Below are positions 8,824 to 33,245 of a stretch of 64,000 nt of DNA, one piece after another. This DNA is from Eledone cirrhosa (Eukaryota), in the NCBI GenBank assembly GCA_964016885.1, contig OZ024741.1, forward strand, positions 218,426,001 through 218,490,000. Direction: 5' to 3'. A program made the position numbers and the translations under genes. Each line of letters begins with the position of its first letter. Within the stretch, counting starts at the first letter, position 1. Below the pieces are notes generated by a model. It ran no database searches. It had not been told where the DNA came from and was given only the letters and a program-made list of their open reading frames with translations.

Positions 8824-8882
<59 letters not shown>

Positions 8883-9081
8883 TACGTACATACATATATG
8901 TGTACAGACGTACAGTAGTATGTATATATATACATACATGCACACATATATATTTGCACGTATAGGTTTACCGAACATTTATTATAATGCTTGGTTTGTT
9001 TGTTTGTAAACAAACGGCCCGAATTACACCGTACAGTGTTTAGGCAACCACGTCACCTTTTTGTTCAACACTGACACAGGA

Positions 9082-9124
9082 ACGATGTACTAGTTTCAAG
9101 CTTATTAGCTATCGTCAGCATCGT
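9082..9124 (-). ncRNA. Minimal type I hammerhead
   Basis: acgatg CTGACGA t-agct-aata-agct-t GAAA ctag TA catcgt. Confidence 0.9.
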
Positions 9125-9598
9125 ATACCTTTCTGCCAGATGGTTGAACGTCTGAAAGTATATACTTTCCTTATGCATATTAACGGCTGAGCAGCCTAAT
9201 ATGCATATCGAGTGAGTTTAGTCGGCTGAGCGCACCGAAAACGATAAATGGAATAGAATGAAACGAAATTTCATTTCTCACTCTTAGTACGGCAGTTACT
9301 TAAATGTAAGTATGTATGTATGTATACGTACATACATATATGTATACAGACGTACAGTAGTATGTATATATATACATACATGCACACATATATATATGCA
9401 CGTATCGGTTTACCGAACATTTATTATAATGCTCGGTTTGTTTGTTTGTAAACAAACAAACAGCCCGAATTACGCCGTACAGTGTTTAGGCAACCACGTC
9501 AGGCAACTCACTCGATATGCAAATTAGGCTACTCAGCCGTTAATATGCATAAGGAAAGTATATACTTTCAGACGTTCAACCATCTGGCAGGAAGATAT

Positions 9599-9641
9599 AC
9601 GATGCTGACGATAGCTAATAAGCTTGAAACTAGTACATCGT
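9599..9641 (+). ncRNA. Minimal type I hammerhead
   Basis: acgatg CTGACGA t-agct-aata-agct-t GAAA ctag TA catcgt. Confidence 0.9.
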
Positions 9642-9955
9642 TCCTGTGTTAGTGTTGAACAAAAAGGTGACGTGATTGCCTAAACACTGTACGGCGTAAT
9701 TCGGGCTGTTTGTTTGTTTACAAACAAACAAACCGAGCATTATATTAAATGTTCGGTAAACCGATACGTGCATATATATATGTGTGCATGTATGTATATA
9801 TATACATACATACATACGTACATTTAAGTAACTGCCGTACTAAGAGTGAGAAATGAAATTTCGTTTCATTCTATTCCATTTATATATATATATATATAAG
9901 TATGTATGTATACGTACATACATATATGTATACAGACGTACAGTAGCATGCACAA

Positions 9956-10007
<52 letters not shown>

Positions 10008-10168
10008 ATATATACATACAGGTACACATACATATATGCACGCATCAGTTTAGCGGACGCTTATTATAACGCCGCTTTGTTCGTTTGTAAACAAACTGAA
10101 CAGCCTGAATTTATGCCATACGGTGTTAAGGCAACCACGTCACCTTTTTGTTCAACACTGACACAGGA

Positions 10169-10211
10169 ACGATGTACTAGTTTCAAGCTTGTTAGCTATC
10201 ATCAGCACCGT
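10169..10211 (-). ncRNA. Minimal type I hammerhead
   Basis: acggtg CTGATGA t-agct-aaca-agct-t GAAA ctag TA catcgt. Confidence 0.9.
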
Positions 10212-10447
10212 ATACCCATCTGCCAGATAGTTGAACGTTTGAAAGTATATACTTTCCTTATGAAAATTAACGGCTGAGCAGCCTAATTTGCATATTGAGT
10301 GAGTTAAATCGGTCAGGCATACCGAAAACGATAAGTTGAAATAAAATGAAAACGAAATTTCATTTCTCACTCTTAGTATGGCACTTACTTAAATGTAAGT
10401 ATGCATGTATACGTACATACATATATGTATACAGACGTACAGTAGCA

Positions 10448-10491
<44 letters not shown>

Positions 10492-10574
10492 CACATACAT
10501 ATATACATACAGCCGTTAATTTTCATAAGGAAAGTATATACTTTCGAACGTTCAACTATCTGGCAGATGGGTAT

Positions 10575-10617
10575 ACGGTGCTGATGATAGCTAACAAGCT
10601 TGAAACTAGTACATCAT
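10575..10617 (+). ncRNA. Minimal type I hammerhead
   Basis: acggtg CTGATGA tagctaacaagctt GAAA ctag TA catcat. Confidence 0.88.
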
Positions 10618-10790
10618 TCCTGTGTCAGTGTTGAACAAAAAGGTGACGTGGTTGCCTTAACACCGTATGGCATAAATTCAGGCTGTTCAGTTTGTTTACA
10701 AACGAACAAAGCGGGCGCTATAATAAGCGTCCGCTAAACTGATGCGTGCATATATGTATGTGTACCTGTATGTATATATGAATGTGTATG

Positions 10791-10827
<37 letters not shown>

Positions 10828-10944
10828 GTGCATGCTACTGTACGTCTGTATACATATATGTATGTACGTATACATACATACTTACATTTAAGTAAGTGCC
10901 ATACTAAGAGTGAGAAATGAATTTTCGTTTTCATTTTATTTCAA

Positions 10945-11002
<58 letters not shown>

Positions 11003-11246
11003 TATTGAAATGTCAACTGGTGGTGACTACCTCCACACCAGATTAGTCTCTCAAGGCTGAAAGCTAGACCCAGAGGCATCAGGTACTTACCAGAATAAAG
11101 GGCTATAACTCTATGCCGCAAAGCATGTTATCCGACGCTCTACCGATATTAGCAATCCTCCTAAAAATAACGGGGCATATAAACACACATATGTGTCGAG
11201 TTGGAGTGGCTGGATGTAGAGTAAGCAAAGTGTGTAGAGATTAATT

Positions 11247-11433
11247 ATTGCTACTTTTGACACAAGGCCAGCCATTATCCTAGTGTATTACTGGTACTTT
11301 ATTTTATCAATCCCGTAAGGATGAAAGGCAAGGTTAACCTCGGCGGGATTTGAACTCAGACCATAAAGGGCCGTAACTCTTTGCTGTAAAGCATGGCGTC
11401 CGACCGTCTACCGATACTGCCAATCCACCGCCC
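11247..11433 (-). mobile_element. Full-length Meta-domain-like tRNA SINE with 20-bp TSD
   Basis: TSD aaagtgtgta(g/a)agattaatt at 11227-11246 and 11434-11453. Confidence 0.92.
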
Positions 11434-11537
11434 AAAGTGTGTAAAGATTAATTGAGCTCCACAATTAATCTATACTTGTTTCTCCTGTTTATTTCCCGTC
11501 CAGTTTATTTTACGCCCCGTTATTATTAGACATTTTA

Positions 11538-11722
11538 GGGCGGTGGATTGGCAGTATCGGTAGAGGGTCGGACGCCATGCTTTCCAGCATAGTTACGTCC
11601 CTTTACGATCTGAGTTCAAATCCCGCCGAGGTTGACTTTACCTTTCATCCTTACGGGGTCGATAAAATAAAGTACCAGTAATGCACTGGGTAATTGCTGG
11701 CCTTGTGCCTAACGTAGAAACA
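11538..11722 (+). mobile_element. Full-length Meta-domain-like tRNA SINE with perfect 19-bp TSD
   Basis: gggcggtggattggcagtatcggtag...gagttcaaatcc...cctttcatccttacggggtcgataaaataaagtacc; TSD gttattattagacatttta at 11519-11537 and 11723-11741. Confidence 0.93.
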
Positions 11723-11889
11723 GTTATTATTAGACATTTTATGAATATATAATTTTATATTAGACATATTTACTTGTGACGTATCACATATCACATTCTC
11801 ATTGCCTTCCCATTAATACAATATAAACCGAAATGGTGTTTTCTGATTTAGACATGTTCAACCACGGTCTTAATACAAACCATAATAAT

Positions 11890-31048: not shown

Positions 31049-31114
<66 letters not shown>

Positions 31115-31180
31115 TTATATATATATATATATCAGAATAGTAAAAACTAGTTAGACCATTTCTCACCAGAGTACTCGAGA
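30232..31180. mobile_element. pLTR-like element with inverted arms, interrupted by (TA)n
   Basis: 30232-30260 pairs with 31130-31158, and 30342-30426 with 30859-30942. Confidence 0.75.
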
Positions 31181-31259
<79 letters not shown>

Positions 31260-31315
31260 CATATATATACATATATGTATATATATATATATATTCATAT
31301 ATATATATATATACA

Positions 31316-31346
<31 letters not shown>

Positions 31347-31439
31347 TCATATATATATATATATATATTCATATATGTATATATATATAAGTATGCATGT
31401 ATACGTACATACATATATGTATACAGACGTACAGTAGCA

Positions 31440-31493
<54 letters not shown>

Positions 31494-31642
31494 TGCATAC
31501 AGGTACACATACATATATGCACGTATCAGTTTAGCGGCGCTAACGTCGCTTTGTTCGTTTGTAAACAAACTGAACAGCCTGAATTTATGCCATACGGTGT
31601 TAAGGCAACAACGTCACCTTTTTGTTCAACACTGACACAGGA

Positions 31643-31685
31643 ACGATGTACTAGTTTCAAGCTTGTTAGCTATCATCAGCAACGT
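31643..31685 (-). ncRNA. Minimal type I hammerhead
   Basis: acgttg CTGATGA tagctaacaagctt GAAA ctag TA catcgt. Confidence 0.85.
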
Positions 31686-31921
31686 TTACCCATCTACCAG
31701 ATAGTTGAACGTTCGAAAGTATATACTTTCCTTATGAAAATTAACGGCTGAGCAGCCTAATTTGCATATTGAGTGAGTTAAATCGGTCAGGCATACCGAA
31801 AACGATAAATTGAAATAAAATGAAAACGAAATTTCATTTCTCACTCTTAATATGGCACTTACTTAAATGTAAGTATGCATGTATACGTACATACATATAT
31901 GTATACAGACGTACAGTAGCA

Positions 31922-31975
<54 letters not shown>

Positions 31976-32131
31976 TGCATACAGGTACACATACATATAT
32001 GCACGTATCAGTTTAGCGGACGCTTATTATAACGCCGCTTTGTTCGTTTGTAAACAAACTGAACAGCCTGAAATTATGCCATACGGTGTTAAGGCAACCA
32101 CGTCACCTTTTTGTTCAACACTGACACAGGA

Positions 32132-32174
32132 ACGATGTACTAGTTTCAAGCTTGTTAGCTATCATCAGCACCGT
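32132..32174 (-). ncRNA. Minimal type I hammerhead
   Basis: acggtg CTGATGA tagctaacaagctt GAAA ctag TA catcgt. Confidence 0.9.
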
Positions 32175-32478
32175 TTACCCATCTGCCAGATAGTTGAACG
32201 TTCGAAAGTATATACTTTCCTTATGAAAATTAATGGCTGAGCAGCCTAATTTGCATATTGAGTGAGTTAAATCGGTCAGGCATACCGAAAACGATAAATT
32301 GAAATAAAATGAAAACGAAATTTCATTTCTCACTCTTAGTTTGGCACTTACTTAAATGTAAGTATGCATGTATACGTACATACATATATGTATACAGACG
32401 TACAGTAGCATGCATATATATATATAATAAGCGTCCGCTAAACTGATACGTGCATATATGTATGTGTACCTGTATGCA

Positions 32479-32542
<64 letters not shown>

Positions 32543-32778
32543 TGCTACTGTACGTCTGTATACATATATGTATGTACGTATACATGCATACTTACATTTA
32601 AGTAAGTGCCATACTAAGAGTGAGAAATGAAATTTCGTTTTCATTTTATTTCAATTCATCGTTTTCGGTATGCCTGACCGATTTAACTCACTCAATATGC
32701 AAATTAGGCTGCTCAGCCGTTAATTTTCATAAGGAAAGTATATACTTTCGAACGTTCAACTATCTGGCAGATGGGTAA

Positions 32779-32821
32779 ACGGTGCTGATGATAGCTAACA
32801 AGCTTGAAACTAGTACATCGT
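32779..32821 (+). ncRNA. Minimal type I hammerhead
   Basis: acggtg CTGATGA tagctaacaagctt GAAA ctag TA catcgt. Confidence 0.9.
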
Positions 32822-33037
32822 TCCTGTGTCACTGTTGAACAAAAAGGTGACGTGGTTGCCTTAACACCGTATGGCATAAATTCAGGCTGTTCAGTTTGTT
32901 TACAAACGAACAAAGCGGCGTTATAATAAGCGTCCGCTAAACTGATACGTGCATATATGTATGTGTACCTGTATGCATATATGTGTATATATATGTATAT
33001 ATATATATGTATATATATGTATATATATATATGTATA

Positions 33038-33095
<58 letters not shown>

Positions 33096-33206
33096 TGCTA
33101 CTGTACGTCTGTATACATATATGTATGTACGTATACATGCATACTTACATTTAAGTAAGTGCCATACTAAGAGTGAGAAATGAAATTTCGTTTTCATTTT
33201 ATTTCA

Positions 33207-33245
<39 letters not shown>

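What the first reader, a model, noticed from the sequence alone, without database searches (positions are those of the whole stretch)
8855..33208. ~490-bp retrozyme-like family: one minimal hammerhead per monomer, 7 copies in tandem-plus-inverted arrays
Seen: each monomer carries stemI-CTGAYGA-t-agct-aaYa-agct-t-GAAA-ctag-TA-stemI', at 9082, 9599, 10169, 10575, 31643, 32132 and 32779. The subfamily differences preserve the fold: N7 C/T, loop II, and A-U versus G.U in stem I. Stem III is the palindrome ACTAGT. Established: this design marks dimer-acting minimal HHRs of PLEs and metazoan non-LTR retrozymes, whose tandem transcripts self-cleave into monomers that circularise. Inference: a PLE-mobilised element producing a ~489-nt circular RNA that contains its own variable (UA)n tract. 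I do not know whether it has been described in this lineage.
Basis: partly seen in the sequence, partly recalled or inferred. Interest (0 to 1): 0.88.

Follow-up and report, generated by a model that had tools for sequence, protein, structure and literature searches.

The report
Retrozyme carrying host U6-type promoter motif
This is a very abundant, protein-free repeat of an animal genome with a predicted self-cutting RNA fold in every unit and the insertion scars typical of Penelope-type jumping genes; each unit also carries the same short DNA signal that sits upstream of the host's own U6-type small-RNA genes, which likely lets the repeat transcribe itself.

Summary
Confirmed: 7 type I hammerhead motifs in three back-to-back insertions. 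Genome-wide there are 24,001 exact cores; sister families show compensatory changes in stems I, II and III. The motif is the canonical weak-stem-III type (newt/axolotl-like), not the 'minimal' PLE type. Units are non-coding, 422-489 nt, sit in (TA)n, and have one long and one short 3' end in 15 of 15 two-arm insertions: a Penelope-like signature. So it is a non-LTR retrozyme, a known kind; this scan noted such elements, their lopsided ends and the octamer before on other DNA of this genome. Added here: the octamer block TATGCAAAT(T/G)AGG matches the element at -77 to -80 of 7 of 8 host U6, U6atac, MRP, tRNA-Sec and RNase P genes (RNase P lacks it), is absent from 12 U1/U2/U5 promoters, and is as conserved across five retrozyme families as the ribozyme core. 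A TATA-like box follows, but 4-5 nt closer than in host genes. Predicted start: about 47 nt before the cleavage site. Cleavage, circles, transcription, polymerase and the helper element are not shown.

The parts
8866..9883 (.). Two-arm insertion, subfamily A: minus arm with short 3' end (~8866, blurred by TATG repeats), inversion junction ~9501-9505, plus arm with long 3' end (~9883)
9897..10951 (.). Two-arm insertion, subfamily B: minus arm with short end at 9897, junction ~10510, plus arm with long end at ~10951
31388..33212 (.). Two-arm insertion, subfamily B: two tandem units on the minus arm (period 489; short end 31388), junction ~32420, plus arm with long end at ~33212. The 31649 unit has a different haplotype from its neighbours
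9088..9118 (-). Type I hammerhead core, predicted cleavage 3' of 9088
9605..9635 (+). Type I hammerhead core, predicted cleavage after 9635
10175..10205 (-). Type I hammerhead core
10581..10611 (+). Type I hammerhead core; private stem I mismatch; unit is 5'-truncated and lacks the promoter-like block
31649..31679 (-). Type I hammerhead core; private stem I mismatch
32138..32168 (-). Type I hammerhead core, predicted cleavage 3' of 32138
32785..32815 (+). Type I hammerhead core, predicted cleavage after 32815
32244..32257 (-). U6-type upstream element (octamer block), 89 nt before core C3; also at 31755-31768(-), 32696-32709(+), 10281-10294(-), 9516-9529(+), and a one-base variant at 9194-9207(-)
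32204..32219 (-). Palindromic TATA-like block, TATA 42 nt after the octamer start; present in all 7 units (9154, 9554, 10241, 10530, 31715, 32204, 32734)
32178..32184 (-). Predicted transcription start zone (about 16 to 10 nt before C3; 47 nt before cleavage if TATA is at -30); inferred only
32305..32330 (-). AT-rich hairpin and first T4 runs after the predicted start; the position at which long 3' ends form
44332..44453 (+). Lone long 3' end without ribozyme, directly after the N gap; part of a duplicate of the 33.1-44.0 kb segment

Best explanation
A non-coding tandem repeat family (non-LTR retrozyme) with one canonical type I hammerhead motif per unit, likely transcribed from its own internal U6-type promoter and likely pasted into (TA)n by a Penelope-like element's enzyme. 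Shown: motif, copy number, covariation, no ORF, (TA)n flanks, fixed long/short 3' ends with variable inverted 5' ends, and the sequence match of the octamer block to host Pol III type-3 promoters. Inferred: the block plus TATA of one unit starts transcription about 47 nt before the cleavage site; read-through RNA is cut slowly, mainly as a dimer because stem III is only a 6-nt palindrome; cleavage-to-cleavage monomers include the next unit's promoter and are probably ligated into circles; a PLE reverse transcriptase primed by both nicked (TA)n strands starts at two preferred sites ~60 nt apart and laps the template, giving back-to-back multimers. Odds: PLE-mobilised retrozyme 0.85; block acts as promoter 0.6; circular template 0.6; Pol III rather than Pol II about even.
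For: 24,001 exact cores; 60,612 vs 31 for the general core pattern. On 14 hand-picked family variants 92% of cells pair, 10 of 14 pairs change on both sides, covariation 0.659 vs 0.233 shuffled and <=0.12 slid. Spread variants avoid the core, 0 of 13 vs 117 of 329, p=0.003; with core positions left free, 27,296 matches and 88 of the first 100 intact. Longest ORF in a trimer 70 aa; circular fold z about -10 with stems I and II formed. 3' ends fall in two clusters, 60 of 62 called in 40 loci plus window; 15 of 15 two-arm insertions with both ends called have one long and one short end, matching the PLE 'tail at one end' (PMC8557442 passages) and the ends of a coding PLE family here. Within-array identical haplotypes 30 of 54 pairs vs 6.8 permuted, max 18. 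Promoter: block at -77 to -80 in U6 x3, U6atac, MRP, tRNA-Sec x2, TATA at -30/-31; matrix from 6 of them scores the retrozyme site 20.9 bits, 0 of 100 shuffles, leave-one-out host scores 13.4-21.4, 12 Pol II snRNA promoters <=6.5; 226 of 232 sites >=14 bits in 1.84 M positions lie in retrozyme context; block 12 of 14 invariant over five families, core 11 of 13, rest 31 of 196; 23,412 vs 42 genome-wide; no T4 run in the first 300-350 nt after the predicted start in A and B.
Against: No RNA evidence of any kind. Octamer-to-TATA spacing is 42-43 nt against 46-48 in all 7 host genes. ATGCAAAT is a common POU site and in A/B is one arm of an RNA hairpin. A spreading sublineage has the block changed at two positions (8 of 131 units, 12.4 bits) and the 310-nt family lacks it. 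Pol III would stop at the T4-T7 runs before the next promoter, yet multimers exist. 114 5' breakpoints are spread evenly, with no pile-up at the cleavage site or predicted start. Only 5 of 16 arrays are fully homogeneous and the window's 31-33 kb array mixes two haplotypes. No coding PLE with a significantly similar end was found. Position 10.1/11.1 is U.U in this family. Only 1 of 9 Xenopus retrozyme dimers cleaved in vitro (bioRxiv 10.64898/2026.07.22.740005). The shuffle control ignores relatedness.
Confidence: 0.7

Rival explanations
1. Same element, but copied from linear RNA: transcripts read through a few units, end at the T-run, and are reverse-transcribed SINE-fashion from that 3' end; the ribozyme is slow and circles are a side product.
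For: Long end coincides with the first T4-T7 runs after the predicted start in A and B; mixed-haplotype arrays; weak stem III.
Against: The coding PLE family has the same two-end rule with a long end that is not T-rich; 5' breaks do not pile up at the start site; a sister family forms a run of at least 27 units at ~466-nt spacing; short ends of A and B have no T4 run.
Confidence: 0.25
2. The octamer block is an ordinary Oct/POU site or an RNA hairpin arm, the promoter is Pol II type or absent, and the likeness to U6 promoters is incidental.
For: Spacing 4-5 nt short; hairpin in A/B; older sister families score best for a U1/U2/U5-type matrix at octamer+16 in 7 of 8 copies (3.5-11 bits), although A, B and the 466-nt family score negative; newt satellite 2 uses an snRNA promoter with Pol II (cited in PMC2220036, passage).
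Against: Match extends five bases beyond the octamer, same strand, TATA downstream; block kept in families whose partner arm has diverged, and repeated 3 times in one family.
Confidence: 0.35
3. The units are solo pseudo-LTRs of a coding Penelope-like element, amplified locally as satellite by unequal exchange.
For: PLE-type ends; homogeneous arrays also fit local amplification (proposed in the 2026 preprint).
Against: In 40 loci taken in order along C1 no unit ran directly into an ORF (flanks read; neighbouring PLE ORFs were separate insertions with their own ends); whole-monomer homology among non-coding families at 60-65%; both arms of single insertions share haplotypes.
Confidence: 0.07

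Closest known systems
Metazoan non-LTR retrozymes (Cervera and de la Pena 2020, PMC7229834; read: outline, results parts 1-2 of 3, discussion, passages)
   Same: Short non-coding tandem units, one type I hammerhead each, GC below 50%, highly paired predicted circle, co-occurring PLEs; weak palindromic helix III as in axolotl HHR_Amex1 and U.U at the base of helix II as in HHR_Amex2.
   Different: Units 422-500 nt with an internal (TA)n tract; (TA)n targeting and long/short end rule; internal U6-type block (main text of that paper does not discuss retrozyme promoters); no RNA data here.
Vertebrate non-LTR retrozymes as non-autonomous PLE derivatives (Li, Clavereau, Pollet, bioRxiv 10.64898/2026.07.22.740005; read: parts 1-3 of 5, passages)
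   Same: Non-autonomous tandem hammerhead units tied to PLEs.
   Different: There the tie is pLTR homology; here it is insertion anatomy, and no homologous pLTR was found. 'promoter' does not occur in its main text.
Newt satellite 2 (Coats, Zhang, Epstein 1994; not held, seen only as title and one citing sentence in PMC2220036)
   Same: Hammerhead satellite with an internal snRNA-type promoter. Recalled, unverified: octamer plus PSE, start about 47 nt before the cleavage site.
   Different: Reported as Pol II; here the match is to the host's Pol III type-3 genes, in an invertebrate-like genome.
EN+ Penelope-like elements (Craig et al. 2021, PMC8557442; Cervera and de la Pena 2014, PMC4209133; passages read)
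   Same: Partial tandems, inverted 5'-truncated copy, tail at one end only, microsatellite targets, type I hammerhead.
   Different: No ORF; tail about 55-60 nt rather than 30-40; canonical rather than minimal hammerhead.

Membership tests
Non-LTR retrozyme | Short tandem units with a type I hammerhead in each | tested here: met
Non-LTR retrozyme | No protein coding | tested here: met
   longest ATG ORF in a trimer 70 aa
Non-LTR retrozyme | GC below 50%, highly self-paired predicted circle | tested here: met
   GC 0.34, 68% paired, z about -10 on 25 shuffles, partly owed to the (TA)n tract
Non-LTR retrozyme | Dispersed as a mobile element | tested here: met
   near-identical copies on many contigs with fixed 3' ends
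Non-LTR retrozyme | Self-cleavage | not testable with these tools
   bench assay
Non-LTR retrozyme | Expressed as linear and circular monomer RNA | not testable with these tools
   needs RNA of this organism
Non-LTR retrozyme | Target-site duplication longer than 4 bp when present | tested here: inconclusive
   flanks are (TA)n
Canonical metazoan type I hammerhead | Helix I ~6 bp, helix II 4 bp, helix III 1-2 bp with palindromic loop, intact core | tested here: met
Canonical metazoan type I hammerhead | Loop 1-loop 2 tertiary contact | tested here: inconclusive
   U-A-A at loop II invariant in 14 of 14 and stem I extends past a bulge; contact not modelled
Minimal hammerhead of PLE pLTRs | Helix II 7-8 bp, helix I 4-5 bp, G10.1-C11.1 | tested here: not met
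   helix II 4 bp over U.U, helix I 6-7 bp
Coding PLE (pLTR of) | Repeat joined to an RT plus GIY-YIG ORF | tested here: not met
   40 loci read; a sample, not the whole genome
PLE-type insertion | Tandem plus inverted 5'-truncated copy, tail at one end, microsatellite target | tested here: met
Host Pol III type-3 promoter | Upstream element as in U6, U6atac, MRP, tRNA-Sec | tested here: met
Host Pol III type-3 promoter | TATA 46-48 nt after the element | tested here: not met
   42-43 nt in the retrozyme families
Host Pol III type-3 promoter | Drives Pol III transcription | not testable with these tools
   bench assay
Host Pol II snRNA promoter | TCAGT element with TATA-like box as in U1/U2/U5 | tested here: not met
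   A, B and 466-nt family score -13 to -16 bits; older families weakly positive

The most novel reading that the evidence does not exclude
A retrozyme lineage that captured the host's U6-type upstream promoter and placed it inside the repeat unit, so that one unit drives the next and the ribozyme-cut circle carries its own promoter to new sites: a self-promoting, Pol III type-3-driven circular-RNA retroelement that has scattered more than 20,000 copies of the U6 promoter signal through the genome and parallels newt satellite 2 by convergence.
Probability: 0.4. Interest if true: 0.72.

Novelty: new variant of a known kind. Interest (0 to 1): 0.52.

Why it matters
How animal retrozymes are transcribed and which enzyme moves them are open points in the papers read. 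This family gives a specific promoter candidate with a predicted start site and a spacing anomaly to test, and an insertion rule that points to PLE enzymes. An upstream (external) promoter is normally lost on retrotransposition; a tandem unit plus ribozyme would solve that. The same work defines U6-type and U1-type promoter elements of this genome, useful for guide-RNA cassettes. If the promoter reading fails, it is an ordinary new retrozyme.

Tried and rejected
Rfam: no hammerhead match. No RNA holder listed; contigs of four runs were laid: one holds the family at very high depth, three others hold 2-6 contigs nearly identical to it, which I do not count as cross-species evidence. Nearest-neighbour test of array homogeneity was uninformative (22 of 70, biased by many near-identical loci) and was replaced by the haplotype test. 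5' breakpoints show no pile-up. Helper search: a coding RT/GIY-YIG family with 900-aa frames, a Hydra-type family and a Neptune-type family with a similarly built U3-A8 hammerhead were compared; tail similarity z<=2.9, none convincing; a pattern for a C3-G8 form of the Neptune-type motif found 0. Pol II snRNA-type matrix does not fit current families. Dimer cofolding gave a stem II/III cross-paired form, not the dimeric hammerhead, so it is no support. The figure 16/16 typed into one search was a miscount; one search gives 15 of 15 (p about 6e-5), with L064 (second end truncated), L084 and L097 (not single back-to-back units) left out. Coats 1994, Rojas 2000 and Ferbeyre 1998 are not held. Lineage was not determined by any search.
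Full report
Observation. The seven motifs are present exactly and belong to three insertions: 8866-9883 (subfamily A), 9897-10951 and 31388-33212 (subfamily B), each made of two arms back to back. A and B are 83-89% alike around the ribozyme. The 3.0-Gb genome holds 24,001 exact 31-nt cores, against 0 for the reversed pattern.

Is it a hammerhead? The general pattern CTGANGA-N14-GAAAC-NN-GTH gives 60,612 matches against 31 and reveals sister families of 466 and 310 nt; older relatives with an AGGG/CCCA stem II align over the whole monomer at 59-67%. 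On 14 variants that I picked to span the families, 92% of cells pair, 10 of 14 pairs change on both sides, and the stem III loop stays palindromic in 14 of 14 with three different letter pairs; covariation score 0.659 against 0.233 shuffled and at most 0.12 for slid pairs (the shuffle ignores relatedness). Among 131 units, variants shared by three or more loci touch 117 of 329 columns but 0 of 13 core columns (p=0.003), while private changes are as frequent in the core as outside. These loci were partly chosen by an intact core; with core positions left free there are 27,296 matches and 88 of the first 100 are intact, the rest scattered. By the definitions in PMC4209133 (passages) the motif is canonical type I with a weak palindromic helix III, not the minimal PLE form. 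PMC7229834 reports that such axolotl motifs cleave poorly alone and well as dimers; that is the basis for the dimer inference. Cleavage is not shown.

What moves it? Units have no ORF over 70 aa. In 40 loci taken in order along C1 plus the window, 60 of 62 called 3' ends fall in two clusters about 55-60 nt apart, nearly all joined to (TA)n; 15 of 15 two-arm insertions with both ends called have one long and one short end (three loci left out, see Tried and rejected). The 114 5' ends are spread evenly. This is the anatomy described for PLEs: partial tandem, inverted truncated copy, tail at one end, microsatellite target (PMC8557442 passages); a coding PLE family here shows the same two ends. 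I infer twin priming by both target strands. The helper is unidentified: three PLE types were compared and none has a significantly similar tail. Units within arrays share haplotypes far more than permuted units (30 of 54 pairs against 6.8), and a sister array has at least 27 units, which fits laps round one circular template; but only 5 of 16 arrays are fully uniform and the window's 31649 unit differs from its neighbours, so template switching, conversion or linear multimers also occur.

How is it transcribed? An octamer block lies 89 nt before C3. I fetched this genome's own small-RNA genes. U6 (three promoters), U6atac, MRP and two tRNA-Sec genes carry TATG(C)AAAT(T/G)AG at -77 to -80 and TATA at -30/-31; RNase P and 12 U1/U2/U5 promoters do not; dispersed U6 and U6atac copies lack it at that position. 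A matrix from six host sites scores the B and A site 20.9 bits, best in the monomer, 0 of 100 shuffles; 10 of 13 family representatives score 16 or more, one A variant 12.4, the 310-nt family and one decayed copy fail. Of 232 sites of 14 bits or more in 1.84 M positions, 226 lie in retrozyme context (these loci are enriched for the element). Across five families the block is 12 of 14 invariant, the TATA-like box 5 of 7, the ribozyme core 11 of 13, the rest 31 of 196. The 13-mer occurs 23,412 times against 42. With TATA at -30 the start falls 16 nt before C3, at the extended stem I and 47 nt before the cut. A and B have no T4 run until +359 and +310, where the long end lies. Against: spacing is 42-43 nt rather than 46-48; the octamer is a common site and a hairpin arm in A and B; Pol III should stop before the next promoter; a U1/U2/U5-type matrix fits only the older families, weakly. 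So promoter function is likely, the polymerase open.

Comparison and novelty. It works like, and on the testable features is, a non-LTR retrozyme (PMC7229834; bioRxiv 10.64898/2026.07.22.740005). An snRNA-type internal promoter is known from newt satellite 2 (one citing sentence in PMC2220036; the original is not held) and an internal Pol III promoter from the schistosome satellite (same passage). Searches for octopus/cephalopod hammerhead retroelements and for retrozyme promoters returned no description of this family or of a U6-type block in a retrozyme; the giant squid genome paper lists 235 hammerhead hits without analysis (passage). The library lacks most subscription papers and supplements were not read. 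Earlier notes of this scan had the retrozyme reading, the lopsided ends and the octamer on other DNA; one found no snRNA-type promoter. My end analysis and octamer lead (note) preceded seeing them. The 'octopod' label comes from one such note and from my recall of the SINE-like flanks, not from a test.

Verdict. Real, abundant, known kind, with one added feature that is directly testable. Interest 0.52.

Noticed in passing
window 7500-7640: Head-to-head pair of short hammerheads of another family (3-bp stem II over U.U, 4-bp stem III), cores near 7534-7556(-) and 7587-7609(+); a relative at 42492-42514(-) and 56084-56106(-).
   Followed up: no
window 22863-24677 and 26090-26126: Decayed Hydra-type PLE frame (about 54% identical to L117's 738-aa frame) with a long-stem-II hammerhead-like motif downstream.
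   Followed up: partly
window 25948-25961 (-); L200:373-386: A second, unrelated repeat carries a top-scoring U6-type block (22.1 bits), antisense to the Hydra-type remnant, without a TATA at the host spacing.
   Followed up: partly
window 33091-44035 versus 44332-57509: Segment duplicated across the 200-N gap at 44036-44235 (92-100% identical blocks): recent duplication or two haplotypes assembled in line.
   Followed up: partly
window 33213-34150; L002, L077, L106, L112 3' flanks: Long 3' ends are often followed by (TA)n broken at intervals by letters like the element's last bases (CATT, AA, TT); could be reiterative copying by the telomerase-related RT or later slippage. Not counted.
   Followed up: no
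L259-L277: Neptune-type PLE family whose 3' region has a hammerhead with U3-A8 in place of C3-G8 in 17 of 18 copies examined, ACCGGT stem III, and a fixed end joined to (TA)n.
   Followed up: partly
L222 upstream: The RNase P RNA gene lacks the U6-type block and has a TCAGT element like U1/U2/U5, hinting at Pol II transcription.
   Followed up: partly
L153-L189 upstream: U1, U2 and U6 genes share a distal TTACCTCCCTT-like element at -257 to -288; U1/U2/U5 share AATTAAAT near -90 and TCAGT near -57.
   Followed up: partly
L139-L151: An older sister family repeats the 33-nt octamer module three times ahead of the ribozyme.
   Followed up: partly
G000:C1:5738326-5750934: Array of at least 27 units of the 466-nt sister family in one orientation.
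   Followed up: partly
window 12616-12673 (-): Weak tRNA match (29.3 bits), probably a tRNA-derived SINE head.
   Followed up: no
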